A stretch of DNA of 64,000 bases from Promethearchaeota archaeon (GCA_048937405.1 JBHLNF010000002.1:288001-352000), one strand, 5' to 3'; positions 10,820 through 56,381 are shown, numbered from the stretch's first letter. Notes: generated from the letters alone by a model not told the origin. Numbers and translations: made by a program.

Positions 10820-13039
10820 ATGAGTGTGAGTGATGTTTTTTTCACAATAATTCTTAATGTTATTCCAATATTGATTTTAATTATCCCGTATTTCTTCATT
10901 CGAAAAAAATTTCTTGGAAAGTTATATTTGAGAATCTATCTGGGAATTTTAATTTTTTATGTTGTGTATTGGTTTCTCCCTATTATATTCCAAACAGATA
11001 TTTCTCCAGAAAATTTAGAGCATACGACAGATATTCAAGGTTTTGGTTTTTTGGCAGCACACTTTGGATCACTTGTTTCACTTTTCGCTTTCTATCCATT
11101 AGTTACCTTACCCTATATTTTTTTTGTAACACCTTTTATTTCTGTATTATATGTATGGAATCGATTAAGAAAAGAAGATGGTTCAACAAAATCAAACTTG
11201 ATCCATCTAACTTACCAATTTACAGAGAGTCCTGTTAAACAAATTCGCAGGAGCATTTTAAAAAGCGACTGGACAAGAGAAAAAGAAATCCTTAAACTAT
11301 TAATTGTACTTTTACCCATATCTCTTTATCTTCTGCAAGTTATTCTCTCTGTTTCAAACTTAGAGACTGATCCTGTAATTACAGGAAAAACTGCTTTAGG
11401 ATGGTTTTTAGAGATTTTATTTGTATATTTGGCAATATTTATCTTTAGTATTGAATTACTCTTTAGTTCCCAAATAGCATTAAAGGGAAGATATATCGGT
11501 GAAGACATAAGAACCCAGACATATAAAAGTTTATATACAGTTGGAGCCCCAATTTCAATATTATCTTTATTACTATTTATCGCACAATATGGTTCTTCTA
11601 TTCTTATCATTTTATACTTTTTTGCATATTTTATAATGGCTTCGGTAATTTTTATCCTATTTCTTAAGATCTTTGAACCAATCTCTATATTGATTTTTAT
11701 AAAACTAATTGATTGGTGGAAAAATAGGAAACAGAAAGTTAAAAACGTAAATTATACAAACTTTTACTATGGAATAATTATTGCTTTTATAGCCATTATA
11801 TTGTTTTTTCTTCTAAATTTAATAGCATTTCAGCCATTATTTTCAATTGGTTTTCCTGATAGTAGTAACATAATCGATTCTGCACAATTTATACCATCAG
11901 TGAATCCTACTTTATCTTCTGCAATTTCTTTTGATCTTATGATAGTTTTTAATTTCATTATTTTAGAACTATTCCCCATAATCATTATGGCAGGACTTTT
12001 AGCGTATATTCTGAAATATATGAAAAGCACTTTCTTAGGACTTATAATTTATTTTATGGTTATAATATCATTTTCAGCTCTCCTAAGTCTTCTTGGAATA
12101 CCTTCATTAATTAATTTTACTCCAGAGGAATATTGGATCACAGGGCAAACCAGCTATACTACCATTCTTAATTTTAATTTTTATACTCTTCGCTCTGCAG
12201 CATTAGATGCTAACTTAAAAGGAGTATTAGGAGCTTTAGCACTTCCATATCTGTATACCAGATATGTATTTAATATCATAATTTGGAGCTTAATGATATT
12301 TTATAGTAGAAAGCTATTTAAAACCAAAAATATTCCTCTTGATGATAAAAACATAGAAAAAGTTGTATTTACGACTCTTACCGATTATCTCTCCTTTGAT
12401 GAATATGATCAAGGAAGTTCAGAAATCCTAATTTCAAGAAAAAAAGATTTCTATGGAAAAGAACTCGAACTAGAACGAGAAGAAGTAAAAGAACTATTGA
12501 ATAATCTGAACGAGGACAAATTTTTAGATGTTCTTAGGCCTGAAGATGAAAATGAGAGAAAAAGATTCTTTTTCACTTTAAAATATCTCTTTCAAAAGAA
12601 TTTAATCGATATATGGGAACCAGAATTCAAGTATACGTTTGAAAAAGTTGAAAAACAAGGACTTTATATTATATATGGGGACGGGAGAGGTGTTTTTAAT
12701 TATGCTTTTAAGAGTGAAGAAGCTCAAGATCCCGGATTGGTATCTGGAATGTTCTCTGCAATCACAGCATTTATTAAAGAAATGACTAAATCGACAGAAA
12801 CTTTAAAAAAAATTGACCACGGAGATATTACAATACTTCTTGAATATGGAGAAAGAATATTTGGAGCATTATTTATAAAAGGTATTCAAAGCTCAGAAAT
12901 ACGAGCTCCTCTGAAAGAATTTATCCAGAAATTTGAAGCAAAATACAAAAATATATTGAAAGATTGGACAGGAGCTCTCCAACATTTTGAAAGTGAAGAA
13001 GATAATAGACTTATAGAAGAGATTTTTAAAGAAGTCTAA
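10820..13039 (+). CDS. Multi-pass membrane protein with C-terminal longin/roadblock-like domain
   Basis: About 12 TM segments, then soluble GLYIIYGDGRGVF...DPGLVSGMFSAITAFIKE, typical of Asgard longin-like domains. Confidence 0.75.
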   Translation: MSVSDVFFTIILNVIPILILIIPYFFIRKKFLGKLYLRIYLGILIFYVVYWFLPIIFQTDISPENLEHTTDIQGFGFLAAHFGSLVSLFAFYPLVTLPYIFFVTPFISVLYVWNRLRKEDGSTKSNLIHLTYQFTESPVKQIRRSILKSDWTREKEILKLLIVLLPISLYLLQVILSVSNLETDPVITGKTALGWFLEILFVYLAIFIFSIELLFSSQIALKGRYIGEDIRTQTYKSLYTVGAPISILSLLLFIAQYGSSILIILYFFAYFIMASVIFILFLKIFEPISILIFIKLIDWWKNRKQKVKNVNYTNFYYGIIIAFIAIILFFLLNLIAFQPLFSIGFPDSSNIIDSAQFIPSVNPTLSSAISFDLMIVFNFIILELFPIIIMAGLLAYILKYMKSTFLGLIIYFMVIISFSALLSLLGIPSLINFTPEEYWITGQTSYTTILNFNFYTLRSAALDANLKGVLGALALPYLYTRYVFNIIIWSLMIFYSRKLFKTKNIPLDDKNIEKVVFTTLTDYLSFDEYDQGSSEILISRKKDFYGKELELEREEVKELLNNLNEDKFLDVLRPEDENERKRFFFTLKYLFQKNLIDIWEPEFKYTFEKVEKQGLYIIYGDGRGVFNYAFKSEEAQDPGLVSGMFSAITAFIKEMTKSTETLKKIDHGDITILLEYGERIFGALFIKGIQSSEIRAPLKEFIQKFEAKYKNILKDWTGALQHFESEEDNRLIEEIFKEV

Positions 13040-15881: not shown

Positions 15882-16169
15882 CTATCTGATAAATTGTTTC
15901 ACTTTTTAATAGTTAACTATTTTTGAATTTTTACATGAAATTTTCTTTTAGAGGTTTATCATGAATTAAGTAAATAAGCCTAAAACTTTTTCAAATTCAT
16001 ATCATTCATTTTGAAAACAAAAAATAATTGTTTAAAATAGAAAAAAGATTATTCAGTATACTTTTTTTTGAGCTTTATATGTTTTATGGAGCAATAACAA
16101 TTCTATAATTCTTATTTAATTATTGTAGCATTCTTAGCAATTTTATTTAGTTTAAGTAGTGAAGATTAA

Positions 16170-19100
16170 TTATCTTAAGATTTCCTCATAAAGTTTCAGG
16201 ACGAAACCTTCAAAATCATCTTTTGTAAATTTGACATTCAGCATATGCCATAATAACCGAGGAATATCATCATCATCTTCATAAATAGGAATAATTTTCA
16301 TTAATCCTTTTTTAACCATTTGATAAGCTGACTGCCATTCTCCTTTTACAGCTTCAGATTTCATAGAATTCTTAGAACAAAATAAAATGAATGTGTTGGT
16401 CTTTTTCAGAGCCTCCTCCATATATTCAACAATATTTTGTTTGCTATCCGCTTTCCAGAATAAGACTTCTCCTATTTCAGGATATAATTCTAAACGGCTA
16501 AAAACTTTTGGGATTTGAAAGTAATCAGAATCTATTGTAGCATAACTTAAAAAAATATTATATTTCGCAATTTTTTCCTTTTCTGGTATAGGCGTGACTC
16601 GTTTTAACTTAAGGGATTTAGAACTTGAGAAATAATCACCATAAATTTCTTTCTTATTGATCATATCCTCAATTACAGTTTCGATTAATTCTTCATTTTG
16701 AATTCCAGTTCTCTCACTGATATCTGTCAGTTGTAAAAGAGTATATTCCCCACCTAATGCTAAAATTGTCTGCTTAATTTTAGAAATAGTTTCTGCTTCT
16801 GATTTTCTATACAAAATTATCTTTTCTTCAATTATGTTTACAATTTTTGATAAATTATACACCTGAGCTGCTTTTTGAATTGCAATTAATGCCTTAATAG
16901 ATTTATCAAATTTGCTTTCCTTGATCAGGTCCTCAATTAATTTGAGACTTTTCTTTAGATTTTTTAAATTTTTAACTTCATTTTCTCCAAATTTAAAGAC
17001 CAACTTCTCTTCTTGTTCTGTTTTTGGAACAAACAATTTTTTCTTCCATACTAAAACACCCGTTACGCTTAAAACAGCAATAATACTGATGATAATAATT
17101 ATTATGATTTCGATTGGAACTTGAGTCCCACCTCCAATTGAAAGATTATTATCAGAAATTATATTACCTATGCTCTTTCCTTCCTGTTTAATTGCTCCCT
17201 TATGATTATCTCTCAAATCATTATAGGTTACATTATTATAACTAGAATTCTCTAAATAAATTCCAAATTCGCTATTAAAGTTTATTGTATTATTGCTGAT
17301 TTTATTATAATCACTTAGCCGTAAATGAATCCCATATCTCTTATTATGATTTATAGTCTCATCATTGTATTTAATGGAGATATTTTTACAATTTGATAAG
17401 AGAATCCCATTATAACTATTATTATTTACAGTACTATGCGAAATTGTAATGTTTTCACATGAATCTAAAAAGATACCACTTCCAAAATTCTGGGAACAAT
17501 TATTAGAGAATAATCGTCCATTATTTGCCAATTTTAATTTAAGTCCTGCCATATTTTCAGAACTACCTGAACTATAAAATATACAATCTCTAATTACAAA
17601 ATAGGAACTAGTATTACTAATTTCTAAGCCGCTAGAAGAATTATGACCATCAATTATTATATTTTCAATCACATAAGGATCAGCTGAAGTCCCAGAACCA
17701 GTACATAATCCTAAATTAAATGCTTCAGTCCAGTTATAAGTTCCCGTCCCTAAATCGTCAATTATAAAAGGTGGAAGAAGCCATATTCCTACTCGTTTTA
17801 TGACTCGAAGTACTTGAGTTTGAATATGACCCGCAGTATCATTCGCATAAAATGTAATAATAATTAACCCATTTCCAAACAAATTCCATTGTTCTTGCAT
17901 AATATTCCCATTCCAATCAAATTTGTCAGACGTTACCGCACTATTTTGTAATGTAAACCATGTGTGTTCTAAATTGGGATCAGTAATACTCACATTAATA
18001 GAGGGAGGAGTAGTTGCAAATTTTTCATAGTCCTCTGGTGAATTAATCGTAATAACTGGCTTTGTATCATCTCCATCACTATAAATTGGTAAATAATCAA
18101 TAACCCCATTCTTGCTATAAGGAGTATCTCCTATCCCATCATCGTTCAAATCGGAACCACTATAATCACTCCAGGAATTCCCTATTATAGAATTATTCCA
18201 ATCATTATTACCATTATCAATTGCGTTTATATCATTATCCAAAGTATTATTATAAAAGAGATTATCTTGACAATCACTAGTAGATATATATATTCCATAT
18301 AAATTATTACTAGAGATGCTATTCCCTGATAACGTGTTATCGTCGCAATTATCCCCTAAATATATTCCGTGGTTTGTGTTGTTATTTGAAACATTTTCAG
18401 AGATGTTGTTCTTTTTGCAATTGTTGGTCAAAAATAATCCACTGTCTTTATTGCTACTTACATTATTGTTCGAGATGGTGTTATTACTACTAAATTCTAA
18501 ATATATTCCATAGTTTGTGTTATTATTTGCATTATTTCCTGAGATTTGATTATTATTGCAATTATTCCCTAAACTAATCCCAATTCCATTGTTGTTAGTA
18601 GTATTATTCGAGATTATATTATCAACATTACCATTACTTAAAGCTATTCCAGCTGTGTTGTTAAACGCAGTGTTTCCTGAGATATTGTTATTATAACAAT
18701 TCATCCCCAAAAGAATCCCGGCATAATTATTTATTGCGGTGTTTTCCAAGAACTTGTTATTACTACTAGAAGATAAAAATATCCCATAATTGTTTTTAAT
18801 AAAAAAGTTTCCCGATAAATTATTATCGCTAGAATCTTCCATATATACCGCATAGAATGTGTTGTTAATAAAGGTATTTCCCAATAAAATGATATTATAA
18901 CCATAAAATAATGATATTCCGAATCTATTATTTAAAAAATCATTATTTATCAAACTTCCATTGCCCGTACCATACAAACAGATTCCTGCATAAAGAAAAA
19001 AACTTCCTGCATTATGGACTTTACAATTTTTTATGGTAAAATAAACGTTTGAATTTTGAATTGTAATACATGCTTCGGATCCTCCTCCATCAATCTCTAA

Positions 19101-20897
19101 ACCATCAATGATATATGGATCAAAATAGGTTCCTGAACCCGAAACCCATGCTTTTAGTTTGGCTATTTGACTCCAATTATTTAAACCTGGACCCGAATCG
19201 TCAATATTAATTATTTCTCCTTCATAAACAGGACTTTCTACTAGTGGAAAATAATCTATACTACCTGCAGTTCCATTAATCGATATATATTCGGTATCAA
19301 CAATGTTATCAGTGTTATCGTCAGGGGATGTGTGATTATCCCAATAATTACCAACAATCGAATTATTCCAGTGATTATTGATGCCCGTGTCGCTCGCATG
19401 CCATTTATTGTTTTCTTTCAGAGCATTATGATAGATTAAATTATTCTGACTACTAATATCATCTATTTGAATTCCATTAATTAGATTACTTTTGATAAGA
19501 TTTCCCACAATGGTGTTATTACTACTAGAGGATAAATAAATTCCGTTTTCCGTATTGTTATTTACAATATTTCCGGATATGGTGTTATTATCACTAGAGG
19601 ATAAATAAATTCCATTTTCCGTATTGTTATTTACAATATTTCCTGATATGGTGTTATTATTTCCTGAGGAAATATATATCCCACTCTTAATATTATTAGT
19701 TGCATTATTTTCTGAAACAATATTGGAAGAGCTATCATACAATAATTTAATCCCGCATTCTGTGTTATTGTTTACGTTATTTTCTGAGATGTTATTATTC
19801 TTGTTATCGGTACTTAAACAAATTCCAACTTGATTGTTATTAACAGTGTTGTTTGAGATAGTGTTATCACTACTAAGTTGAATACTTATCCCACAATCTG
19901 AGTTGTTGTTTACACTGTTTCCAAAGATAACATTATTATTGGAACTGGTTACAATTATCCCGCATTCTGTGTTATTGTTTAAATCATTTCCTATGATGAA
20001 GCTATTATTGGTGTATATCCATATCCCTCTTCTATTCTTGTTTGCAATATTTCCTGTGACAGTAGTGTAATCGCAATATGCCCATAACTCTATCCCTTCA
20101 TAAAAATTTTCATATACGGTATTTTCTGAAACGGTATTATATTCACTCCAATATATATCAATACCATATTTGTTGTTATTTGCGGTGTTTTGTGAGAAAG
20201 TGTTATTATTACTAAAATTTATATTTATCCCACACATTGAGTTGTTGTTTGCTGTGTTTCCTGAAACGATGTTATTGTAACTAGAGGATAAAAATATCCC
20301 ATCGGACGTGTTGTTATTTACGATGTTTTTCGAGATTGTGTTACTTTGACTTGAGGATAAATATATTCCATCGTAAGTGTTGTTATTTACAGTGTTTTCC
20401 GAGATTGTATTATTATTACAACTATTAAACAACCAAATACCATTACCTCCATTATAAGAACAATTGTTTTTGAATAAGTTTCCGTTGTTGGTATTTCTCA
20501 ATTTGATTGCAGCATCCTCATGATCTATTCCTGCGTTGAAAATTGTAACATTTCTGATGACAAAGTAAACATTTTTAGAATTTTCTATGAAAATTCCATT
20601 TCCCGTAGGTGAACTGGATGCATCAATTGTGACATTTTCGATAACATAGGGATTGCTCCATGAACCATCACCATTACACCAATCGTTTAACGATGTAAGG
20701 GACCAGTTATCATTAATATGGATATACGTAAGTTCCCAAGAATTTGACTTCTTAAGGTTTTTTAAATTAATATCATCTGAATCTGTTGAATTTGACATAT
20801 TGTAAATATATAGATTATTTAACAACAATATTGTCATCAAAAAAATGAAGCTTGTTATTAACACATATTTCCTACCGATTTTTTTTTTCAATTTCAT
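16170..20897 (-). CDS. Single-pass receptor-like protein: NosD/parallel beta-helix ectodomain, Ig-like, TM, PCI-like and TIR domains
   Basis: Signal anchor, three Asn-rich GIYL-x-SS-x-NN-ISGN solenoids, TM IIIIIIISIIAVLSVTGVLVW-KKK, C-terminal IFLSYA...FILFCSKNSMKSEAVKGEW...IIPIY (TIR). Confidence 0.88.
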   Translation of the reverse strand: MKLKKKIGRKYVLITSFIFLMTILLLNNLYIYNMSNSTDSDDINLKNLKKSNSWELTYIHINDNWSLTSLNDWCNGDGSWSNPYVIENVTIDASSSPTGNGIFIENSKNVYFVIRNVTIFNAGIDHEDAAIKLRNTNNGNLFKNNCSYNGGNGIWLFNSCNNNTISENTVNNNTYDGIYLSSSQSNTISKNIVNNNTSDGIFLSSSYNNIVSGNTANNNSMCGININFSNNNTFSQNTANNNKYGIDIYWSEYNTVSENTVYENFYEGIELWAYCDYTTVTGNIANKNRRGIWIYTNNSFIIGNDLNNNTECGIIVTSSNNNVIFGNSVNNNSDCGISIQLSSDNTISNNTVNNNQVGICLSTDNKNNNISENNVNNNTECGIKLLYDSSSNIVSENNATNNIKSGIYISSGNNNTISGNIVNNNTENGIYLSSSDNNTISGNIVNNNTENGIYLSSSSNNTIVGNLIKSNLINGIQIDDISSQNNLIYHNALKENNKWHASDTGINNHWNNSIVGNYWDNHTSPDDNTDNIVDTEYISINGTAGSIDYFPLVESPVYEGEIINIDDSGPGLNNWSQIAKLKAWVSGSGTYFDPYIIDGLEIDGGGSEACITIQNSNVYFTIKNCKVHNAGSFFLYAGICLYGTGNGSLINNDFLNNRFGISLFYGYNIILLGNTFINNTFYAVYMEDSSDNNLSGNFFIKNNYGIFLSSSSNNKFLENTAINNYAGILLGMNCYNNNISGNTAFNNTAGIALSNGNVDNIISNNTTNNNGIGISLGNNCNNNQISGNNANNNTNYGIYLEFSSNNTISNNNVSSNKDSGLFLTNNCKKNNISENVSNNNTNHGIYLGDNCDDNTLSGNSISSNNLYGIYISTSDCQDNLFYNNTLDNDINAIDNGNNDWNNSIIGNSWSDYSGSDLNDDGIGDTPYSKNGVIDYLPIYSDGDDTKPVITINSPEDYEKFATTPPSINVSITDPNLEHTWFTLQNSAVTSDKFDWNGNIMQEQWNLFGNGLIIITFYANDTAGHIQTQVLRVIKRVGIWLLPPFIIDDLGTGTYNWTEAFNLGLCTGSGTSADPYVIENIIIDGHNSSSGLEISNTSSYFVIRDCIFYSSGSSENMAGLKLKLANNGRLFSNNCSQNFGSGIFLDSCENITISHSTVNNNSYNGILLSNCKNISIKYNDETINHNKRYGIHLRLSDYNKISNNTINFNSEFGIYLENSSYNNVTYNDLRDNHKGAIKQEGKSIGNIISDNNLSIGGGTQVPIEIIIIIIISIIAVLSVTGVLVWKKKLFVPKTEQEEKLVFKFGENEVKNLKNLKKSLKLIEDLIKESKFDKSIKALIAIQKAAQVYNLSKIVNIIEEKIILYRKSEAETISKIKQTILALGGEYTLLQLTDISERTGIQNEELIETVIEDMINKKEIYGDYFSSSKSLKLKRVTPIPEKEKIAKYNIFLSYATIDSDYFQIPKVFSRLELYPEIGEVLFWKADSKQNIVEYMEEALKKTNTFILFCSKNSMKSEAVKGEWQSAYQMVKKGLMKIIPIYEDDDDIPRLLWHMLNVKFTKDDFEGFVLKLYEEILR
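19510..19659. repeat. 69-bp intragenic tandem duplication (one 23-aa beta-helix rung)
   Basis: TGGTGTTATTA recurs at 19511, 19580 and 19649 with near-identical intervening DNA. Confidence 0.85.
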
Positions 20898-21206
20898 TTA
20901 AATTCCACCTATTTCACCCTTATTTTATCCCTTATCATTAAATAGTGTTAATTTGCATTTTGAACTCGTGGTAAATGGTATTTTTAGATTTCTTTTTATA
21001 ATTTACTTATAAAATTCTCTAGCTTATAAATATCTTTATTTTCCTATTAGAAGATAGATTTAATTCATTCTTTTAAAAAAGATAAGGTATAAAATTCTGG
21101 AGAACTCAAATTAATAAGATCATCTGGCATAAAATAATGTTAAAACATATATACATTATTTTGATTTTTTCCACGTTATTCTTCTTTATCGTATAACTAT
21201 AATCCT

Positions 21207-21842
21207 TCATAAAAAAAATGGTAGACAGGTGGTAAAACCTAATAAAATGCCTGCTGTTATCCCTCCAATTAGCAATGAAATTGCCATTTTTGGATTAAAA
21301 GGTATTTTATTCACCATATACCATACAGCAATTACTAAATCTGTGATTGCTATAAACGATCCAAATGCCACGACATAATAGATTGTTTGTTCATGTGGGT
21401 AAATGGATGCACTTATATCCATAATTCTATTCATTGTAAAAGGATCAATAATTCCACTAAAATTAATAAAGTTAAAAATCAGCCTATCGGGTAATGGTTC
21501 TAATACAAAAATTAAAACCATTGTAAGCCAATTGAATAAAATTCCAAATGCTAGTGCAATATAAATAGAACCTAAAATAAGCCGTGGTCTTCTTAATTTA
21601 TTAACTTCCTTCATATCTTTTAAACCCTTATCTCCATATTTCATTCTCTCTTGAAGATAAGTTCCGCGTAATTTTACCAATGTTAAAATTCCAATCGATA
21701 GCATTACGAAAAATAAAATATATTTCACAAACCCAAAAAAAATTACAGCAAATTCATTAAATGCAACACACCATGCCTCTAATCCATTAAAAAGGTCGGT
21801 AAAAGGATTATTAAGATATTTATCTAAAGGAAGGTATATCAT
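21207..21842 (-). CDS. Membrane protein (about 4 TM)
   Basis: Hydrophobic segments. Lies directly downstream of the HerA-like ATPase. Confidence 0.7.
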   Translation of the reverse strand: MIYLPLDKYLNNPFTDLFNGLEAWCVAFNEFAVIFFGFVKYILFFVMLSIGILTLVKLRGTYLQERMKYGDKGLKDMKEVNKLRRPRLILGSIYIALAFGILFNWLTMVLIFVLEPLPDRLIFNFINFSGIIDPFTMNRIMDISASIYPHEQTIYYVVAFGSFIAITDLVIAVWYMVNKIPFNPKMAISLLIGGITAGILLGFTTCLPFFL

Positions 21843-21895: not shown

Positions 21896-23692
21896 CTATT
21901 TGCGTTTTTGTTGTTTTACATATAACTCATCCAGATAATTCTTAAGATTCTCATATGCCTCTTCAGGATCAACAGAAGATTCTGATATATCATCATTAAC
22001 TTCATATTCACTAGAATAATTGTCTAAATATTCGTCACCATTCAAAATCTCATTTGATTTGGCTTTATTTTTATTTATCTTGTTATTCTTCTCTCCATCT
22101 TTAATTTTTATTTTTTTTAAAAAACCAGTAAATTTTTCTATAAAATTTCTAAAATTGTGAGTTTGTTTTGTATTTTTTATTTCTACACTCTTATTTTTTA
22201 ACTGATCGAATTTTTTTAATACTCTTTCATTATTTTTATTAATTTCAGTAATCTTTAGCCATTCACGAGGAATATGAGGGACTTTTAGGAGAAATGGTCT
22301 CTCTATTGAATTCACACGAGCAATACATTGCCCCTTCTTTAAAATCGATAAATAATCTTCATGTTCTATATCCAAATTTAAAAGTTTACATAAAAATTCT
22401 TTATCCATATGAGTTTTAAAACATATTAAAACTCCACAATTTGCCAAAATCTCTTCGCTAATATCTGGGTGAGTTGCCAGTGATATCAAACATTCTCCGG
22501 TACCTCTCTGAAGTAAAGCAATATCTTCAAGATACGTGGTTAGCTTACTTTTTCGGGTAAGATCTTTTGGAGCAAAATATTGAGTATCTTCTACTATGGT
22601 TATATGCTTTATTCCTTGAAAATTATACGCTCCACGAGTAAGATTTCTGTCCCAGAGGTATTTTAAAAGCATATTCAAAAAGAAAAGAGCATCTTCCTTT
22701 TCTCCACCAAGACGGATAATTGAACTGAGATCTATCAAGATATTTCTGCTAAAAAGGGTATCAGTTTTTATTTTATGCTCAGTATCGAATAGCACTTTAA
22801 GAGGGCCTAACGAAAATCTTCGTATTCGATTGGTGATACTAATGATGGTCTGACTGAGCATAGGAATCTCCTTTTTTTTATTGATGGCATACCCATTGCA
22901 ATATTTATAAAATCCTTCCCAACTCTGAAATTGTTTCTTTTGGCACACTTTTGTTAAGATATCTACTAGAACCTTTTGCATCTGTGCGGAATATTCCTCT
23001 GTGGTATCGAGGAATTTACCACTCTTTAATATATCAAATATTCTTTCAGCATGGATTTCTGGAGGCGATGTTCCAGGATTAAAGATATTTATAGAAAAAT
23101 TCTCACCGGGACGAATAACTAACAAATCTTCAATCTTTCTCTGGAGAAAATGATATTCTCCTTTAAATTCTGCAAGCATAAATGGAATTTTATATCGTCG
23201 TATAAGATTGATTAAGAAATGTTGTAAAAAATTACTTTTACCTGTACCAGTCGCACCACAGATAAACATATGCTTCTCAAGGTCTTCGAGAGAAAGATAA
23301 AATGGTCGTTTAGTTCTCCCATTTTCTATGATGGTTCCTGCCTTAACTTTTCCCTTTCGAGACTGTAACAATGATGGTTTATCTAATTTTACAATGTCGC
23401 TTTCATAGTGAAATGAGGAACAAATAAACATTCCGGCAGAAAATAGCAGCGAAAAAAAGAATATATTGCTAAATATCCCTTTTATAGGAAACGTTGCAGA
23501 ATCAGGATTAATGGTAAGATAAGGGAGTGAACTAAGAGTGAAAATTAGAATTTCTGTTCCTAATAAACATATAAAGAACAATTTCGATAGTGTTCGTGAA
23601 CCTCCTCGCTTCCTAGTATAGTAAAAAATAACGCTATATACAATTAAAACAACAATGAGAATTATACTTATTGAATCTATGAGAGTAGACAT
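21896..23692 (-). CDS. Membrane-anchored HerA/FtsK/VirB4-like ATPase (DUF87 type)
   Basis: Three N-terminal TM helices, KHMFICGATGTGKS, EFKGEY, atypical Walker B IVEDTQ, LANCG, LKKGQC. Confidence 0.82.
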   Translation of the reverse strand: MSTLIDSISIILIVVLIVYSVIFYYTRKRGGSRTLSKLFFICLLGTEILIFTLSSLPYLTINPDSATFPIKGIFSNIFFFSLLFSAGMFICSSFHYESDIVKLDKPSLLQSRKGKVKAGTIIENGRTKRPFYLSLEDLEKHMFICGATGTGKSNFLQHFLINLIRRYKIPFMLAEFKGEYHFLQRKIEDLLVIRPGENFSINIFNPGTSPPEIHAERIFDILKSGKFLDTTEEYSAQMQKVLVDILTKVCQKKQFQSWEGFYKYCNGYAINKKKEIPMLSQTIISITNRIRRFSLGPLKVLFDTEHKIKTDTLFSRNILIDLSSIIRLGGEKEDALFFLNMLLKYLWDRNLTRGAYNFQGIKHITIVEDTQYFAPKDLTRKSKLTTYLEDIALLQRGTGECLISLATHPDISEEILANCGVLICFKTHMDKEFLCKLLNLDIEHEDYLSILKKGQCIARVNSIERPFLLKVPHIPREWLKITEINKNNERVLKKFDQLKNKSVEIKNTKQTHNFRNFIEKFTGFLKKIKIKDGEKNNKINKNKAKSNEILNGDEYLDNYSSEYEVNDDISESSVDPEEAYENLKNYLDELYVKQQKRK

Positions 23693-23933: not shown

Positions 23934-24965
23934 ATGTTTTTGGAAGAAAAATGTAATAGGGATACGTGTGGAATTGCCTGTTTAACAAAATGTTATTATA
24001 TGGACTATTCAGAGCAACAGGCAAAAGAAGAATTTGAAAAATTAATAAGAGGTGAACTGTCTCCTGTAACATCGGAATGTATTACATGCTGTGCGTGCAC
24101 AATGTATTGCCCACATGGTGCAGATCCTTTTGATCTCATCAGCAGGAGAATGGAAGAAACAGGAACATTTATTGGGGATGAACGTGCAGTCAATCAAACG
24201 AAAATGGCTAATTTAATGCCATCATCTGTAAAAAAAGGGGATCCTGATAAGCCTATAATGAATCTTTGCACAGTTAATTTGATTGCAGGGTCAATTGAGG
24301 GACAATTATTTGAAGGATTAACCCTTCTTCAAGGAGGAGATTATTTCTGTCAAATTGGAGGATATCATGCCGGATTACCAAGTATGGTGAGAGAAAATGC
24401 CCAGAAATTCATTACTACCCTTACAAAAGTCGCTTCTGATGATAATTATGTAATTTGCTTCCATGACGATTGCTTTATGATGCTGGAACATTATGCAAAA
24501 GATTTTGGGATAGAAGTTCCGTTTAGATATATGCATATCATTGAATATCTTCGAGATTATGTGAAAAAGAATCCCGATAAAATTAAGAAACTCAACATGA
24601 AAGTGGCATACCAGCAACCATGCGCGTCTCGTATAGGATGGGATGCTTTCAGGAAAAAAGACAAAACACTTGATGAGTTATTCGATTTATTGGGTGTTGA
24701 AAGAGTAGCTCGAAAATATGATCGCGACGCAGCACTCTGTTGTACAGCAGTTATTTCTCCTAATGATAAATATTGGAAAATGAACATAGCCGATGCTAAA
24801 GAAGCAGGGGCAGAAGCGATGGTATTTCTCTGCCCCGTCTGTTGCTTATACCTAAGGAGCAAAGCTAAAGCAGAGGGGTTGGAACCTTATTTTCTAAGCA
24901 ATCTCGTAAGGGAAGCATTGGGTGAGAGGCTCCCCCAAGGGAAAGCCGGTAAAATTTATGAATAA
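23934..24965 (+). CDS. Fe-S oxidoreductase (HdrD/GlpC-like, cysteine-rich domain)
   Basis: CITCCACTMYCP, YQQPCASR, ALCC, FLCPVC. Confidence 0.8.
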   Translation: MFLEEKCNRDTCGIACLTKCYYMDYSEQQAKEEFEKLIRGELSPVTSECITCCACTMYCPHGADPFDLISRRMEETGTFIGDERAVNQTKMANLMPSSVKKGDPDKPIMNLCTVNLIAGSIEGQLFEGLTLLQGGDYFCQIGGYHAGLPSMVRENAQKFITTLTKVASDDNYVICFHDDCFMMLEHYAKDFGIEVPFRYMHIIEYLRDYVKKNPDKIKKLNMKVAYQQPCASRIGWDAFRKKDKTLDELFDLLGVERVARKYDRDAALCCTAVISPNDKYWKMNIADAKEAGAEAMVFLCPVCCLYLRSKAKAEGLEPYFLSNLVREALGERLPQGKAGKIYE

Positions 24966-25280
24966 AATAAAGCAAAAATACTATATTTTTTTTTAGTTGT
25001 CAAATCCAATTTATCTGTTTAGTACTAAAAATGTAGGACTTTAAATACGAAAAATACAAGCTATAAGTACTGTATGATCACTATTTTTAGAAAAGAGAAC
25101 AAGAACCATAACACTTTCCCTCATTTACTTCTCTTTTCTTTTCTTCTCAAAAAATCTCTGAAAAATATAGATTTTAAGGCTTTTGACATAGAATAAATGG
25201 TCTATTGATTGTTTTATTCTCTCAATATAAATCTATTTTTACAAAAATTGACCAAAAAAAGAAAAAGAAGAAAGGGGAAA

Positions 25281-26417
25281 TTATAAAGCATTATAAAGAG
25301 CGTCAATAATTCTCTCACTTCGGGGATCTCCTGCGATGGTATTTGTCATTTTATTCATAACATAGGCAATACTTAACCTAGCATCAAGATCCATTCTGCA
25401 TACTGAACCTCCAGCTCCACCCCAATATAACACATTTTTATTTGGACCTTTAGGGCGTTCTTTTTGTTGCAACCCAAAACCCAAGCCGAAACGTACTGGT
25501 AATTGAACGACCAAATCTGTTCCATACGATTGTTCCTCTAGAGCCTTTTTAATAGTCTTTAATGAAAGTATCTGCACACCATCAAGTTCACCTCCACAGG
25601 CTATTGCTGCAGCTATTCTGGCAACAGAGCGAGCATTTCCATGACCATTTGCAGCTGGAATTTCGGCTCCACGCCAAGCGCGAGTCTTAACTTCTCCAGG
25701 AGGTATTGGAGAACTCATAACTGTTTTTATAACAACAGAATTTGGATCTAATTGTCCTAATTGGCTTAGATCTCTAGTGGGAGGAGGTATAAGTTCTCCG
25801 ACACGGGAATCATACTCTTCCGAAAGTCCGATGTGAAAGTCTGCATTGAGAGGTACAGCAACTTCTTCTCTAAAAAATGTTCCAAGGGTTTTTCCTGTTA
25901 TACGACGTACTATCTCACCTAATAAGTATCCAAAAGTTACCATATGATAACCGCTTTTGGTTCCAGGTTCCCACCATGGCTTTTGGGCAGCTAACAAGTT
26001 AACCGTTTTTTCCCAGTCATAAAGAGTCTTGATTCCAACGGGCTTATCGAAACCAGAAAGTCCCGATGTATGACTTAGTAGATACCGAACTGGTAATGTA
26101 TCTTTTCCTGCTTGGGCAAACTCAGGCCAATACTTAGCAACAGGAGCATCAAGATCTAGTTGACCTCGATCAACAAGCATGAGGGTGCATATTGCGGTCA
26201 TTATTTTTGTTGTTGAATAGACATTCACAATTGTATCCTTTTCCCATGGTTTTGTTTGGGCAACGTCAGAATGTCCCGCCCACATATCTATTATGAATTT
26301 GCCATTTAACGTTGCTGCAAATGAAGCTCCAACCTCTAAATCCTCTTCGAAATTTTGAGCAAAAGCGTCTTTCACCGCGTTAAATTGGTCATCACAAAAT
26401 CCATGAATTTCAACCAT
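25281..26417 (-). CDS. Serine hydrolase, beta-lactamase class C / family VIII esterase-like
   Basis: SxxK (YSTTK), LLSHTSGL, GYH, WGGAGGS. Confidence 0.92.
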   Translation of the reverse strand: MVEIHGFCDDQFNAVKDAFAQNFEEDLEVGASFAATLNGKFIIDMWAGHSDVAQTKPWEKDTIVNVYSTTKIMTAICTLMLVDRGQLDLDAPVAKYWPEFAQAGKDTLPVRYLLSHTSGLSGFDKPVGIKTLYDWEKTVNLLAAQKPWWEPGTKSGYHMVTFGYLLGEIVRRITGKTLGTFFREEVAVPLNADFHIGLSEEYDSRVGELIPPPTRDLSQLGQLDPNSVVIKTVMSSPIPPGEVKTRAWRGAEIPAANGHGNARSVARIAAAIACGGELDGVQILSLKTIKKALEEQSYGTDLVVQLPVRFGLGFGLQQKERPKGPNKNVLYWGGAGGSVCRMDLDARLSIAYVMNKMTNTIAGDPRSERIIDALYNAL

Positions 26418-26559
26418 AATTTTTCACATTCAATTATTTAATTTAATTTGTAGGGGAGAATTTATTTTAAGTTTTCATTTTCTCCAAAATTTGGTGAAAA
26501 AATATCTAGTTTATTAATCCGAGGTTGATTAATATACATAAAACATTAATGTTAGAATT

Positions 26560-28101
26560 ATGAAAACTATAGTAAATACTTCTTTAGGAGAAATTGAAGG
26601 TATTCAAGAATCAGGCCATCAATCGTTTTTGGGGATTCGTTATGCTAAACCACCCGTGAATGAATTACGTTTTTCTACTCCTCTCCCAATTGAAGCATGG
26701 GACGGAACTTATGATGCGACTCATTTTGGTCATAATGCTCCTCAATTTGATAGGGGTATAGGATATTTTAAAGATAATTCTGAAGATTGTTTATTTTTGA
26801 ATGTGTATACTCCTAAGGCTGATGACGCAAAAAGGCCTGTAATGGTATGGATCCATGGTGGGGGTTTTGTATTTGGAACAGGGGCAACCGTAGGGTATGG
26901 AAAAAAAATAGTTCCAAGAGGTAATATTGTTTTGGTCACAATCAATTATCGATTAGGAGTTTTTGGCTTTTTTAATTGGCCTGATTTAACAAAAAATAAC
27001 GGATTGCTAGATCAAATTTGTGCTCTTGAATGGGTTAGAGATAATATTCGATATTTCGGAGGGGATAATACTAATGTAACGATTTTTGGGCAATCTTCTG
27101 GTGGAAGGGCAGTAACTACATTACTAACAATGCCTTCAGCAAAGGGATTATTCCACAAAGCAATCCCCCAAAGTGGTACCGCACATCCTTATGCGTATGA
27201 TACTAAGCCGAGTAAGGAAGCTTCAAGAGTCGTGTTTGATGTATTAGGAATTAAAACGGGGGATATCGATTCATTAAGAGAAGTAGAATGGTCCGAATTG
27301 AAAAAGGCTCAGGCTGAAATTTTTAGTAAACTAGATCCGAAAGAACATCGAATTATGTTTCCTTTTAGACCCGTACTTGATAAAGATACTATTCCAGTTG
27401 TACCCTTGGATGCCATTCGGAATGGATATGCAAAAAATATTCCGTTACTTATCGGAAACACATTGGACGAAAGGAAAATTTATAATAGAGGATTAATCCG
27501 GGCAAACCAAGTTGCATTAATACATAGACGACATGAAAACACAGATGATGCGAGGCTTTTAAAATTTGCTAATAGATATATGAAATACTACGGTAAAACA
27601 GAAGATGATGCAAAAGACTTAATTGAAACGTACAAAAAATCTAGAAAGGGTAAGTTACCAATAGAGTCCTATGAACTTGAATATGTTATCAATACTGATG
27701 AGGCATATCGAATACCAGTCATCCGAATTGCTGAAGCACAAAGCCAAAATCAACAAAATACTTATTGCTACCTATTTGGGTTCAAATCACCCGTCTATGA
27801 GGATTTGCTAGGTGCATGTCATATAATTGATTTACCATTTATTTTCGGCACTTATGATAATTCAGATCCGAATACAGAAGTAATGGTTGGAACCAATATA
27901 GAGGTACTTGAACCTTTTTCAAACATAATCATGGATACATGGATAGCATTTGCTAAAAATGGAGACCCGAATCACCGAGGGCTTCCCAAGTGGCCACAAT
28001 ACGATCTGAATAACCGTGCTACAATGATCCTCAAACCAAATCCAGAGGTTGTCAATGCCCCAATGGACGAGGTACGCGCTGCATGGGAAAAAGTTTTCTA
28101 A
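26560..28101 (+). CDS. Type-B carboxylesterase (p-nitrobenzyl esterase-like)
   Basis: SEDCLFLNVYTP, WIHGGGF, FGQSSGG, GACH. Confidence 0.94.
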   Translation: MKTIVNTSLGEIEGIQESGHQSFLGIRYAKPPVNELRFSTPLPIEAWDGTYDATHFGHNAPQFDRGIGYFKDNSEDCLFLNVYTPKADDAKRPVMVWIHGGGFVFGTGATVGYGKKIVPRGNIVLVTINYRLGVFGFFNWPDLTKNNGLLDQICALEWVRDNIRYFGGDNTNVTIFGQSSGGRAVTTLLTMPSAKGLFHKAIPQSGTAHPYAYDTKPSKEASRVVFDVLGIKTGDIDSLREVEWSELKKAQAEIFSKLDPKEHRIMFPFRPVLDKDTIPVVPLDAIRNGYAKNIPLLIGNTLDERKIYNRGLIRANQVALIHRRHENTDDARLLKFANRYMKYYGKTEDDAKDLIETYKKSRKGKLPIESYELEYVINTDEAYRIPVIRIAEAQSQNQQNTYCYLFGFKSPVYEDLLGACHIIDLPFIFGTYDNSDPNTEVMVGTNIEVLEPFSNIIMDTWIAFAKNGDPNHRGLPKWPQYDLNNRATMILKPNPEVVNAPMDEVRAAWEKVF

Positions 28102-28143
28102 ATTAAATTTTTTTTTATAACACTTTTACTTGAGATTAAAATT

Positions 28144-29604
28144 ATGGGGGAAAAAAAGATAAAAAAAAACCGATTGGAGGAATTAATTGGAACAGTAAGT
28201 AAAGATCCTCACTTACTTTCTTCCCAGTTGGATTATCCATCTATTACTGAACCATTAGCTAAGTACATTTCAGAAACCCAATTTAGTACAATCCCAGACG
28301 ATATACTCGAACTTGCTAAACGCCATATCCTAGATACTTTGGCTTCAGTGGTGGTAAGTTCACAGTTAAAACCTTCTCGTCTAGCACGTCAATTTGCAAT
28401 CTTTAATGGTGGAAAAGCTGATACCGCACATTTACTTACTACAAATCAAACCACCACCTTATTGGATGCTATTTTTGCAAACGCAATAACGGCTCATGCA
28501 ACAGAAATAAATGATTTTTGCCCATCCGCATTCGTGCAACCTGGTCCTCCAATTATATCCACTGCATTATCTATTGGGGAAACTATAGGAGCATCTGGAG
28601 AAGAAATACTCAAAGCAGTTGTTATTGGTTATGAAATTGCGTGTAAACTACCAAAAGCCTTGGGAACGATGAACCTACGTACAGCGGGATTATCATCTCA
28701 TGGTGTCGGACCTACCTTTGGTTCAGCCGCAACAGCAGCATCACTTTTAAAATTACCAAAAAGGGAAATTAGATATGTTTTAGCTTATTGTGTTCAACAA
28801 GCATCAGGTTCTTTTAATTGGATTCGTGATGAAGAACATATCGAAAAAGCTTTTCTATTTGCTGGAATGCCTGCAAGAAATGGAGCTTCTGCCGCTTTAA
28901 TGGTTCATAAGGGATTTACAGGTGTAAATGATCCTTTTAAAGGAAGACCCAACTGGTTGCTCAGTTCTATTTTCATTGGAATTGATTCTGATCTTGATTT
29001 AAATAGATTAATTCATGATTTAGGAGTAGAATACGAGATGCCCTTGGTAGGGTATAAACGATATCCTGTAGGTGGTCCAGTCCAAGCCAGTGTTGAGGGA
29101 TTAATGGAGTTAATAAAAAAGGTAGACCGAACATCAATTATTAAAATTGAAATAAAGATGCCAGGAAATGTAAGCATTTTTTCTGATGCGGAAATGCCCG
29201 CATTAAATTTACGATATTTGGCAGCAGTTATTTTAGAGGATGGTGATCTATCCTTTCACATGGCACAATCTCACGAACGTATGTCCACAGAATCAATTAG
29301 AAAAAAAATGGAGTATGTTACCTTAATCCACGATCCCACTCAAGAAAAAGAACCTCGAGTAGAATCAGCACTAGTAAAAGTGACCCAAAAAAATGGTGAA
29401 AATCATGAGATTTTCATCGAACATGTCCTTGGATTCCCTGAACGCCCTATGAATCATCAAGATGTTGAAGATAAAGTGAAAAGCTTAATTACTCCGATAT
29501 TGGAATACTCAAAAGCAAATGACTTAATTGAGACAATATGGAATCTGGAATCCTTACCAAACATCCAGACCATTATTCCGTTATTAATTCCACCAAATAC
29601 TTAA
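28144..29604 (+). CDS. MmgE/PrpD family protein
   Basis: AKRHILDT, AHATEINDF, KRYP, LGFPERP. Confidence 0.88.
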   Translation: MGEKKIKKNRLEELIGTVSKDPHLLSSQLDYPSITEPLAKYISETQFSTIPDDILELAKRHILDTLASVVVSSQLKPSRLARQFAIFNGGKADTAHLLTTNQTTTLLDAIFANAITAHATEINDFCPSAFVQPGPPIISTALSIGETIGASGEEILKAVVIGYEIACKLPKALGTMNLRTAGLSSHGVGPTFGSAATAASLLKLPKREIRYVLAYCVQQASGSFNWIRDEEHIEKAFLFAGMPARNGASAALMVHKGFTGVNDPFKGRPNWLLSSIFIGIDSDLDLNRLIHDLGVEYEMPLVGYKRYPVGGPVQASVEGLMELIKKVDRTSIIKIEIKMPGNVSIFSDAEMPALNLRYLAAVILEDGDLSFHMAQSHERMSTESIRKKMEYVTLIHDPTQEKEPRVESALVKVTQKNGENHEIFIEHVLGFPERPMNHQDVEDKVKSLITPILEYSKANDLIETIWNLESLPNIQTIIPLLIPPNT

Positions 29605-29640
29605 TCATTCTGATTTTTTGCTAGTATTTTTAAAATTTTA

Positions 29641-29706
29641 CCCAAAAACTCAATTGGAAAAAAATGGTAAATTTAATGTCTAATTTCAATGAAAATTCTT
29701 TTAAAA
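29641..29706 (-). repeat. Dispersed cassette-boundary repeat, copy 1 (degenerate)
   Basis: Reverse complement reads TTTTAAAAGAATTTTCATTGAAATTAGACATTAAATTTACCATTTTTTTCCAATT. Confidence 0.7.
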
Positions 29707-29822
29707 AATTTTAGGAACATTTTAGGAATATATGGATTTACTAATTAAGATGATTATTGTAAATGATAAACTAAAAACAAAATAAAAAGAAGATATAATA
29801 AAATTGGTTGATATTTAATGAG

Positions 29823-31856: not shown

Positions 31857-32124
31857 ATTTACTTTTATATTTATTAGATATTATTAGTTTTGAACTATTA
31901 ATGAATTTTAACTCTTTTCTTTTGATAAAATTGATATAATGGATTTTAAATTAGGATCAATTCATAGAAACCTTTGTATTTAAACATAGTATCATTTATT
32001 TTACTATTTTATCTTAGATGCGATATCTAATATATTTGAGATATTTACCCAGTTTAGTCAAGCTTTACTTGCCCTTCATTCATTAAAATCAATTTATTGA
32101 CAAATCAAAGAATCTTTTCAGATA

Positions 32125-55897: not shown

Positions 55898-56015
55898 ACA
55901 AAATCATACAATTTTTTCATTGAATTAATTATAGCAATATCTCAAGATATTTATTCTTAACCCTCAAAATGGTTCTTAGGAGTTTAAATGGCTTATAGAT
56001 ATATTTTAAAATAAC

Positions 56016-56177
56016 TTATACAGAATCAATGCGTCTTGAAACCCGCGCAATAAAATACACCTCGTTTTCCTTTTTTTTATTGCTGACAAGTTTTCCACCA
56101 AAATACCCTCCAACACCTCCAACACCAAAAATACATATTGTCTGCTTTTCTGATGTTCCCCCTTTACTCATATTCAT
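56016..56177 (-). pseudogene. 5' remnant of a ketopantoate reductase (PanE/ApbA-like) gene
   Basis: TICIFGVGGVGGYFGGKL...EVYFIAR Rossmann start, with a stop after 53 aa. Confidence 0.7.
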
Positions 56178-56381
56178 ACCTGTATCATCATCCTAAAGTT
56201 TTAATCTTAGTATCAGTCTACTCATATTTTAAGATTATGTATAATCCCTTTAGAAAGTTTAAACTATCCTAAGTAATTAAAAGAAAAATAGAAAGAAAAT
56301 ATGGCAGAATGATAATGAGAGATACGAATAATGAGATACCATTAGATAAATTATTTAAATCCGCTCCTCTTAAGTTATTTT

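What the first reader, a model, noticed from the sequence alone, without database searches (positions are those of the whole stretch)
16170..20897. Toll-like-receptor-like architecture: beta-helix ectodomain, TM, PCI-like and TIR domains
Seen: an N-terminal signal anchor and about 1250 aa of ectodomain with three beta-helix solenoids, each opened by a G-x-G-x4-PY(V/I)I cap, plus an Ig-like segment. These are followed by one TM helix (near 17050-17115), a wHTH/PCI-like segment (LQLTDISERTGI...IEDMINKKEIYGDY) and a C-terminal TIR domain (about 16170-16560) retaining a Glu in VKGEW. Known: animal TLRs couple an extracellular LRR solenoid to a cytoplasmic TIR domain, and prokaryotic TIR domains with this Glu are often NADases in defence. 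Inference: an Asgard surface receptor sensing glycans, viruses or partner cells and signalling through TIR, probably convergent with TLRs rather than ancestral to them.
Basis: partly seen in the sequence, partly recalled or inferred. Interest (0 to 1): 0.82.

Follow-up and report, generated by a model that had tools for sequence, protein, structure and literature searches.

The report
Asgard membrane receptor with TIR tail
This Asgard (Loki-type) archaeal gene encodes a single-pass surface protein with three sugar-binding-type beta-helix modules outside the cell and, inside, a PCI-like winged helix joined to a TIR domain that keeps its enzyme residues. It is a strain-variable member of a large, apparently undescribed archaeal family laid out like animal Toll-like receptors but not related to them by descent.

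Summary
Window 16170-20897 (-) is one 1575-aa ORF. It reads: N-terminal anchor, three paralogous NosD/CASH-type beta-helix modules each opened by a GxGx4PY[VI]I cap, one TM helix followed by KKK, a PCI-like helical and winged-helix domain, and a TIR_2 domain. E1520 and S1514 are invariant and align with the Cat1 NADase active-site residues E74 and S68.

AlphaFold models and fold searches confirm both the TIR and the PCI-like folds. The Ig-like spacer remains only a lead. An independent metagenome study has a contig that bridges TIR, PCI, TM and ectodomain with no differences, so the gene is not a chimeric assembly.

The same PCI-TIR cassette sits on 14 paralogs in this genome. Their heads are beta-helix, SBP_bac_5, Peripla_BP_6, WD40 or LRR, or there is no head at all. 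The cassette also occurs on hundreds of proteins named only from Asgard MAGs, mainly in one order.

A co-occurring related strain lacks exactly this gene (a 5238-bp indel), so it is accessory. The TIR lacks TLR boxes 2 and 3 and the ectodomain is not LRR, so it is analogous to TLRs and not a member.

Most likely it is a surface sensor whose clustering switches on a TIR NADase. No function has been tested. The scan had already found paralogs of this family on other DNA.

The parts
16170..20897 (-). Whole ORF, 1575 aa (P0001): anchor, 3 beta-helix modules, Ig-like spacer, TM, PCI-like domain, TIR
20805..20861 (-). N-terminal hydrophobic signal or anchor segment (aa 13-31), preceded by KKKIGRK
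   Evidence: Hydropathy. AGGTGG 7 nt upstream of the ATG at 20897. The public gene call from Met34 omits this segment.
19218..20720 (-). Beta-helix module 1 (aa ~60-560), cap GDGSWSNPYVI at aa 76
   Evidence: Pfam Beta_helix/NosD. Cap. Nearest solved relative by sequence is NosD at E 1.7e-8.
18078..19190 (-). Beta-helix module 2 (aa ~570-940), cap GSGTYFDPYII at aa 587
   Evidence: Weak similarity to mannuronan C5-epimerase AlgG (E 4e-6).
17748..18077 (-). Spacer, possibly Ig-like (aa ~941-1050)
   Evidence: Leads only: Glucodextran_B E 0.046 and Big_7 E 0.11; Atlas feature hits to bacterial Ig-like clusters at 0.75-0.78.
17133..17747 (-). Beta-helix module 3, membrane-proximal (aa ~1051-1255), cap GSGTSADPYVI at aa 1067
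   Evidence: This part is the most widely conserved ectodomain piece among homologues (44-46% identity).
17046..17114 (-). Single transmembrane helix (aa 1262-1284) followed by KKK
   Evidence: The same pattern is seen in about 60 of 67 long homologues.
16599..16985 (-). PCI-like domain: three long helices plus winged helix (aa ~1305-1433)
   Evidence: AF2 models. Profile against PDB: CSN3 PCI E 5e-4. Foldseek top 50 almost all PCI proteins. VIA: CSN3 Z 9.6, rmsd 1.8 over 62 residues. Pfam PCI above cut-off in paralogs.
16209..16556 (-). TIR_2 domain (aa 1448-1563) with S1514 and E1520
   Evidence: Pfam. AF2 pLDDT about 90. Cat1 Z 14.9, rmsd 1.7 over 115 residues, and Hydra TRR-2 Z 14.5. Foldseek. 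E1520 aligns with Cat1 E74 and S1514 with Cat1 S68, with PMC12162218.
15921..21158 (.). 5238-bp segment (the gene plus both of its intergenic flanks) that is absent from a co-occurring related lineage. Its edges carry an imperfect repeat, TTTTGA(A/T)TTTTT.
   Evidence: Joint 15920>21159 in one contig each of runs X3, X4 and X5, from two studies; flanks differ by 5-12%. Edge sequences.

Best explanation
The gene encodes a type-I, single-pass surface protein of a Promethearchaeota (Loki-type Asgard) archaeon. About 1230 residues lie outside the cell, probably N-glycosylated. They form three CASH/NosD-type parallel beta-helices and a short beta-rich spacer. One helix crosses the membrane. About 290 residues lie inside: a PCI-like helical and winged-helix domain followed by a TIR_2-type TIR domain with an intact active-site Ser/Glu pair.

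Proposed mechanism (inferred, not shown): binding of an extracellular polymer or particle (glycan, virus or neighbouring cell surface) clusters the ectodomains. The PCI-like winged helices and the TIR domains then assemble into an oligomer that completes the composite TIR active site. The TIR cleaves NAD+, either depleting it or making an ADPR-derived signal.

The PCI-TIR cassette is a portable output module. In this genome and its relatives it is fused to many different sensor heads, both membrane-bound and soluble. This particular copy is an accessory gene that varies between strains. It resembles Toll-like receptors in layout only.
For: Shown:
- Domain order and topology.
- Sequon asymmetry of 56 against 1.
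- The same single TM followed by a basic stop-transfer and the same sequon asymmetry in about 60 of 67 long homologues.
- TIR fold, with the best match to the NADase Cat1 at Z 14.9, plus SPARTA, SARM1, MyD88 and TRR-2.
- E1520 and S1514 are invariant in 40 cassettes and 14 paralogs. They align with Cat1 E74 and S68, which line the NADase site; their Ala mutants lose activity (PMC12162218).
- PCI-like domain supported at three levels. PCI domains are described as oligomerisation modules (PMC11188069).
- Cassette with swapped heads in the own genome: beta-helix, SBP_bac_5, Peripla_BP_6 plus beta-helix, WD40 plus fn3 plus beta-helix, LRR, WD40, or no head.
- The nearest TIR to this one belongs to the SBP_bac_5 receptor. 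Its cytoplasmic part is 62% identical and its ectodomain is unrelated.
- The cytoplasmic part is better conserved (55-64% identity) than the ectodomain (at most 40%).
- Not an assembly artefact: an X3 contig spans the whole gene, and an independent-study X4 contig bridges 16115-17204 with no differences.
- Accessory status: a precise 5238-bp presence/absence difference against a co-occurring lineage, and no gene at the orthologous position in 10 congeneric species.

Inferred: ligand-driven clustering and NAD+ cleavage. This follows from the established rule that TIR NADase sites form between assembled TIR domains (Cat1, SPARTA and SARM1 structures listed; PMC12162218).
Against: - No biochemical, expression or localisation data exist.
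- No known defence-system model matches. PADLOC gives only ThsB at E 0.003, and no known TIR-signal effector is adjacent.
- Beta-helix modules are common structural parts of archaeal surface proteins. In paralogs they lie under other binding domains, so the ectodomain may be a stalk or envelope component and not a specific sensor.
- This protein itself does not reach any Pfam PCI score. PCI rests on paralogs, on the family profile and on the fold.
Confidence: 0.6

Rival explanations
1. It is a structural envelope or adhesion protein. The beta-helix array is part of the cell surface or a cell-cell contact protein. The PCI-TIR tail only anchors or organises it from the inside, with no signalling and no catalysis.
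For: NosD/CASH beta-helices with many sequons are typical of archaeal surface proteins. In other genomes such genes lie in tandem arrays together with TIR-less beta-helix giants. No partner effector was found next to the gene.
Against: The TIR active-site Ser and Glu are invariant across the family. The same cassette is fused to classical ligand-binding domains (SBP_bac_5, Peripla_BP_6) and to soluble LRR and WD40 heads, which fits a sensor-output logic better than an anchor. The gene is dispensable in a co-occurring strain.
Confidence: 0.2
2. It signals as a non-enzymatic scaffold, TLR-style. The receptor TIR recruits the genome's short soluble PCI-TIR proteins (the tandem pair at G000:C19:164764-166830) as adaptors through TIR-TIR and PCI-PCI contacts. 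Output lies downstream of these adaptors.
For: Soluble 333- and 347-aa PCI-TIR proteins without a sensor head exist in the same genome. PCI domains in eukaryotes assemble hetero-oligomers (PMC11188069). Top fold matches include the scaffolding TIRs MyD88, MAL and TRR-2.
Against: The short proteins keep the same Glu, so nothing marks them as mere adaptors. No interaction was shown. No death-domain or kinase-type downstream module was seen.
Confidence: 0.15
3. It is a true homologue or ancestor of animal Toll-like receptors.
For: The layout is the same (ectodomain solenoid, one TM, cytoplasmic TIR). Hydra TRR-2 TIR is among the best structural matches (Z 14.5).
Against: - The ectodomain is a beta-helix, not LRR.
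- The TIR scores as TIR_2, and PF01582 does not match this protein.
- Boxes 2 and 3 are absent (PMC7075850).
- A PCI domain is intercalated, which TLRs lack.
- The family is concentrated in one order of one phylum.
- Prokaryotic NADase TIRs score as well or better structurally (Cat1 Z 14.9).
Confidence: 0.03
4. It is an assembly chimera or mis-joined ORF.
For: The genome is a MAG from sediment metagenomes. Repetitive beta-helix DNA attracts many partial contig matches.
Against: Contigs from three samples of one study span the gene. A contig from a second study bridges the TIR-PCI-TM-ectodomain junction with no differences. Dozens of homologues share the architecture.
Confidence: 0.02

Closest known systems
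Animal Toll-like / IL-1 receptors (type-I receptors with a cytoplasmic TIR)
   Same: N-terminal signal, large repetitive solenoid ectodomain, one TM helix, C-terminal cytoplasmic TIR. A family with varied ectodomains on a conserved TIR.
   Different: The ectodomain is a right-handed parallel beta-helix, not LRR or Ig. A PCI-like winged-helix domain lies between TM and TIR. The TIR is TIR_2-type, lacks boxes 2 and 3, and keeps NADase-type residues. No MyD88-like death-domain adaptors were seen. It is restricted to Asgard archaea.
Prokaryotic NADase TIR effectors (Cat1 CARF-TIR, SPARTA TIR-APAZ, AbTir/BtpA-like TIR_2 proteins, ThsB)
   Same: TIR_2-type sequence. Best structural match is Cat1 (Z 14.9, rmsd 1.7 Å). 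Active-site Ser and Glu are conserved. A sensor domain is fused to a TIR output.
   Different: The sensor is extracellular and acts across a membrane. No CARF, APAZ/Ago, SAVED, STING or ThsA partner is present. The PCI-like module is new in this context. No PADLOC model matches beyond ThsB at E 0.003.
PCI domains of COP9 signalosome, proteasome lid, eIF3, TREX-2
   Same: Helical repeat followed by a winged helix. The family profile hits CSN3 PCI (E 5e-4). Foldseek hits are nearly all PCI subunits.
   Different: It is short (about 130 aa), membrane-proximal and fused to TIR. It is not part of any known PCI complex. The target itself is below the Pfam PCI threshold.
NosD / AlgG / CASH-family parallel beta-helix proteins and archaeal beta-helix surface proteins
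   Same: PbH1 repeats with strong Pfam and NCBIfam matches. An extracellular location is predicted.
   Different: There are three tandem modules, with a TM and a cytoplasmic signalling tail. The NosD subfamily score (219 bits) is below its cut-off (300 bits). There is no evidence of epimerase or lyase residues.

Membership tests
TIR domain (Pfam TIR_2, PF13676) | Profile match above the curated cut-off | tested here: met
   44.3 bits (48.6 on the C-terminal part) against a cut-off of 28, aa 1448-1563.
TIR domain (Pfam TIR_2, PF13676) | Flavodoxin-like five-strand TIR fold | tested here: met
   AF2 model, pLDDT about 90 over the TIR. Cat1 Z 14.9 with rmsd 1.7 over 115 residues; TRR-2 Z 14.5; Foldseek TMt 0.76.
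Catalytic (NADase) TIR domains | Glutamate at the catalytic position in alphaC, and the neighbouring active-site Ser | tested here: met
   E1520 and S1514 align with Cat1 E74 and S68 (PMC12162218). Both are invariant in alignment A1 and in the 14 paralogs.
Catalytic (NADase) TIR domains | NAD+ cleavage upon oligomerisation | not testable with these tools
   Needs an enzyme assay.
Metazoan Toll-like receptors | LRR ectodomain | tested here: not met
   There are only Beta_helix/NosD matches and no LRR family.
Metazoan Toll-like receptors | TIR with box 2 (RDxxPG) and box 3 (FW in alphaE), per PMC7075850 | tested here: not met
   There is no RDxxPG. The only FW lies in betaB (VLFWKAD), not alphaE (definitions).
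Metazoan Toll-like receptors | Type-I single-pass topology with cytoplasmic TIR | tested here: met
   Hydropathy, the positive-inside rule and sequon asymmetry. This is a prediction, not an experiment.
PCI domain (PF01399) | Profile match above the cut-off | tested here: inconclusive
   The target itself has no PCI hit. Paralogs L017 (23.9 bits) and L020 (25.7 bits) exceed the cut-off of 22. Precomputed PF01399 is on homologues P0172, P0192, P0213 and P0215. The family profile against CSN3 gives E 5e-4.
PCI domain (PF01399) | Helical repeats followed by a winged helix | tested here: met
   AF2 model, pLDDT 86.9: H6-27, H31-47, H51-85, then beta-H-H-beta-beta. Foldseek list of CSN3, CSN2, PCID2, eIF3c and Rpn3. 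VIA: CSN3 Z 9.6, CSN7 Z 8.6, 1ufm Z 8.5.
PCI domain (PF01399) | Assembly into a multi-subunit PCI complex | not testable with these tools
   Needs biochemistry or structure determination.
Thoeris (ThsB with ThsA) | ThsB-type TIR next to a ThsA effector | tested here: not met
   PADLOC ThsB only at E 0.003; Pfam ThsB_TIR at 19.6-21.3 bits, around its cut-off of 21.2. The neighbours are a HerA/FtsK-like ATPase, a 211-aa unknown protein and a Fer4/TrmB protein.
CASH / NosD-type parallel beta-helix | PbH1 repeat profile matches | tested here: met
   Beta_helix E 2.4e-107, NosD E 1e-104. TIGR03804 repeat, 14 stretches. The NosD_copper_fam subfamily score of 219 is below its cut-off of 300, so it is not NosD itself.

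The most novel reading that the evidence does not exclude
Loki-type Asgard archaea run a Toll-like sensing network. Many membrane and soluble sensors share one PCI-TIR output cassette. The sensors, together with head-less PCI-TIR proteins, co-assemble through a eukaryote-like PCI scaffold to trigger TIR activity. This would be an archaeal innate-immune or cell-contact signalling system that couples two modules (PCI, TIR) otherwise prominent in eukaryotes.
Probability: 0.2. Interest if true: 0.9.

Novelty: new variant of a known kind. Interest (0 to 1): 0.7.

Why it matters
TIR domains link bacterial, plant and animal immunity. Transmembrane receptors with a large ectodomain and a cytoplasmic TIR are regarded as an animal invention. 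Here the same layout appears in the archaeal lineage closest to eukaryotes, as an expanded and rapidly shuffled family, and with a PCI-like oligomerisation domain that no described TIR protein carries.

If the cassette is an inducible NADase, it would show how an archaeon can pass an extracellular signal across the membrane to an abortive or signalling response. It would also give a clear case of convergent evolution with TLRs. No paper in the searchable library describes it. The family members in the databases carry only generic names.

Tried and rejected
- Complex prediction on two copies of the cytoplasmic cassette (aa 1304-1575, alignment A1): no verdict, score 0.00. This is evidence neither way.
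- The search for related loci in genome contigs with the single cassette found nothing. The genome search then found relatives.
- No RNA holder was listed for the stretch, so expression is untested.
- Single-sequence search against PDB gave only a marginal Cat1 hit (E 0.2). The family profile was needed.
- The whole-cassette VIA search was filled by TIR hits and did not test the PCI part. I folded the PCI part alone.
- Synteny in 10 congeneric species: only the Fer4/TrmB orthologue is conserved. No TIR gene, 211-aa gene or HerA-like gene lies beside it. These species are too diverged (61-78% aa identity) to date the insertion.
- I tested whether SIR2_2 proteins share the receptor architecture, which would indicate effector swapping. 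The 7 SIR2_2 proteins are soluble N-terminal SIR2 proteins with no similarity to the TIR paralogs. Idea dropped.
- I considered the 526-aa conserved neighbour of receptor arrays as a specific partner. It is single-copy, highly conserved, and its look-alike clusters extend to Bathyarchaeota and Thermoproteota, so it is probably an unrelated conserved gene. In this genome it sits next to another paralog, not this gene.
- Rfam found no RNA family anywhere in the window.
- Literature searches for Asgard or Lokiarchaeota with TIR found no description of this family. Leão et al. 2024 mention TIR only within lists of defence systems.

Full report
**1. What is there.**
Window 16170..20897 (-) is one uninterrupted ORF of 1575 aa. 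Pfam finds nine stretches each of Beta_helix (E 2.4e-107) and NosD (E 1e-104). It also finds a C-terminal TIR_2 domain at aa 1448-1563 (44 bits, cut-off 28). NCBIfam finds 14 para_beta_helix repeats.

The strict cap motif GxGx4PY[VI]I occurs three times, at aa 76, 587 and 1067. Each opens a beta-helix module, and none is expected in 2000 shuffles. The three modules are paralogous to each other (33-42% identity, E down to 7e-31).

The piece between modules 2 and 3 (aa ~940-1050) has only weak Ig-like signals: Glucodextran_B E 0.046, Big_7 E 0.11, and Atlas feature scores of 0.75-0.78. 'Ig-like' therefore stays a lead.

**2. Topology.**
Hydropathy shows two hydrophobic segments. One is at aa 13-31 after KKKIGRK, and the other at aa 1262-1284 followed by KKK. 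There are 56 NxS/T sequons before the TM and one after it. Cys is 1.8% outside and 0.4% inside. This places the beta-helices outside and the PCI-TIR part in the cytoplasm.

The public gene call starts at Met34 and loses the anchor (P0002). An AGGTGG motif lies 7 nt upstream of the first ATG, and most complete homologues have an N-terminal hydrophobic segment. Both favour Met1.

Among 67 homologues of at least 700 aa, about 60 have a single internal TM 158-500 aa from the C-terminus, followed by K/R. They carry 15-50 sequons per 1000 residues before the TM and 0-7 after it.

**3. Cytoplasmic cassette.**
I aligned 40 cassettes (A1) and obtained an AlphaFold model with mean pLDDT 82.7. Residues 157-286 of the cassette form a TIR fold. 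The best matches were:
- Cat1 (CRISPR-associated TIR NADase): Z 14.9, rmsd 1.7 Å over 115 residues.
- Hydra TRR-2: Z 14.5.
- RPS4, MyD88, SARM1 and ThsB.
- By Foldseek: TRR-2 (TMt 0.76), SPARTA TIR-APAZ, MyD88 and SARM1.

E1520 and S1514 are invariant in A1 and in all 14 in-genome paralogs. In the HMMER alignment they pair with Cat1 E74 and S68. Those residues line the Cat1 NADase site, and their Ala mutants are inactive (PMC12162218).

The juxtamembrane part (aa ~1305-1433) is PCI-like, on four lines of evidence:
- Paralogs exceed the Pfam PCI cut-off (23.9 and 25.7 bits against 22).
- The A1 profile hits the CSN3 PCI domain at E 5e-4, and eIF3c and Rpn3 more weakly.
- A separate model of this part (pLDDT 86.9) shows three long helices and a beta-H-H-beta-beta winged helix.
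- The Foldseek list for that model is almost entirely PCI subunits: CSN3, CSN2, PCID2, eIF3c, Rpn3, Csn12. VIA gives CSN3 Z 9.6 and CSN7 Z 8.6.

The target alone does not reach a Pfam PCI score. I therefore file it as PCI-like by fold and by family profile.

**4. Family.**
The own genome (4.47 Mb, 29 contigs) has 14 ORFs with this TIR. Five are anchor-ectodomain-TM-TIR proteins. Their ectodomains are beta-helix (two genes), SBP_bac_5, Peripla_BP_6 plus beta-helix, and WD40/PQQ plus fn3 plus beta-helix. The rest are soluble LRR-PCI-TIR, WD40-TIR and LRR-TIR proteins, a 1010-aa protein of unknown head, and a tandem pair of head-less PCI-TIR proteins.

An exhaustive HMMER search finds 846 cluster representatives at E ≤ 1e-3 and 120 at E ≤ 1e-30. 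All homologues that carry a source name are Promethearchaeota, Lokiarchaeota, Hermodarchaeota or Thorarchaeota MAG proteins with generic names. The long forms nearly all combine Beta_helix/NosD with TIR_2, often with SBP_bac_5 or Peripla_BP_6 in addition. Other heads include Peptidase_C14, SEFIR, TPR and PCMT.

In a sample of 301 genomes of the phylum, 61 have the cassette at E ≤ 1e-10. These are 48 of 68 in the same family and 5 of 7 in the sister family of the order, and only sporadic cases elsewhere.

A FastTree of 218 TIR domains needs at least 15 switches between TM and long soluble contexts. The TIR nearest to this one belongs to the in-genome SBP_bac_5 receptor. So heads are swapped on a conserved cassette. 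The cassette is 55-64% identical to its best homologues, while the ectodomain is at most 40% identical.

**5. Assembly and population.**
Contigs from the probable source sample, and from another sample of the same study, span the whole gene. A contig from an independent study covers 16115-17204 (TIR, PCI, TM and the start of the ectodomain) without a difference.

One contig in each of three runs (two studies) joins 15920 directly to 21159. It skips 5238 bp, which is exactly this gene and its two intergenic flanks. The flanking sequence on these contigs is 5-12% diverged. A related lineage in the same sediments thus lacks the gene. The edges carry an imperfect TTTTGA(A/T)TTTTT repeat.

Ten congeneric species keep the Fer4/TrmB neighbour but have no TIR gene beside it. 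The gene is therefore accessory. That fits a defence or variable-surface role but does not discriminate between them.

**6. Context.**
The neighbours are a Fer4/TrmB-like protein downstream, and a 211-aa unknown protein and a HerA/FtsK-like ATPase upstream. None belongs to the indel. None matches a defence model convincingly (HerA at E 1e-7). The gene looks like a single-gene unit.

In three other assemblies, family members lie in same-strand tandem arrays of beta-helix and TIR genes.

**7. Mechanism and rivals.**
The most likely reading (0.6) is a surface sensor in which ligand-driven clustering assembles the PCI-TIR tails and switches on TIR NAD+ cleavage. The topology, the fold and the catalytic residues are shown. 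The ligand, the clustering and the catalysis are inferred.

The rivals are:
- A structural or adhesive envelope protein (0.2).
- A non-enzymatic scaffold with soluble PCI-TIR adaptors (0.15).
- True TLR homology (0.03).
- An artefact (0.02).

Against TLR membership: there is no LRR, the TIR is TIR_2-type, boxes 2 and 3 are absent (PMC7075850), and a PCI domain is inserted.

**8. Novelty.**
I found no paper on Asgard membrane TIR receptors or on PCI-TIR fusions in the searchable library. Earlier follow-ups of this scan had already described paralogs in the same genome and look-alikes in other genomes, so this family is not new to the scan.

This report adds:
- Structural and profile evidence for the PCI-like domain.
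- The alignment of the active site to Cat1.
- The family-wide topology statistics.
- The independent-assembly check.
- The strain-level presence/absence of this copy.

Noticed in passing
window 15921-21158: A related lineage in three metagenome runs (two studies) has a precise 5238-bp gap here. It joins the Fer4/TrmB gene directly to the 211-aa gene. Both edges carry TTTTGA(A/T)TTTTT.
   Followed up: partly
L036:6060-7640, L037:1666-3246, L038:11845-13425; own genome G000:C13:193757-195334: A 526-aa coiled-coil protein without a Pfam family lies inside or beside beta-helix/TIR receptor arrays in three other Asgard assemblies. It is 79-85% identical between genomes. In this genome it sits next to another TIR receptor paralog. 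Atlas look-alike clusters also occur in Bathyarchaeota and Thermoproteota.
   Followed up: partly
L037:3683-17181: A same-strand array in a Promethearchaeota MAG: SBP_bac_5 protein, TIR_2 503 aa, beta-helix-TIR 991 aa, TIR 986 aa, beta-helix-TIR 979 aa, followed by a RelA_SpoT plus TPR protein.
   Followed up: no
G000:C19:187830-190505, C7:316950-319853, C7:271385-273562, C11:31327-33636, C11:15079-17226, C13:288260-290692, C25:183767-189442: Seven soluble proteins of 709-1890 aa with an N-terminal SIR2_2 domain. Two of them flank the TIR paralog on C11. They have no TM and no similarity to the TIR proteins.
   Followed up: partly
window 21896-23692 (-) and 21207-21842 (-): A HerA/FtsK-like P-loop ATPase (DUF87, E 2e-10) and a 211-aa protein of no family lie directly upstream on the same strand. 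They are outside the indel, and their role is unknown.
   Followed up: partly
window 10820-13039 (+): A 739-aa ORF whose only lead is a weak TFIIE_alpha-like winged-helix hit (E 0.004, below cut-off).
   Followed up: no
window 24000-32000 and 56000-58000: GC content rises to 35-38% against about 29% elsewhere in the window. No Rfam RNA family was found anywhere in the window.
   Followed up: partly
proteins P0036, P0009, P0139 (homologues from metagenomes): The same Asgard TIR is also fused to a caspase-like Peptidase_C14 domain, to a SEFIR domain and to a PCMT methyltransferase domain.
   Followed up: no
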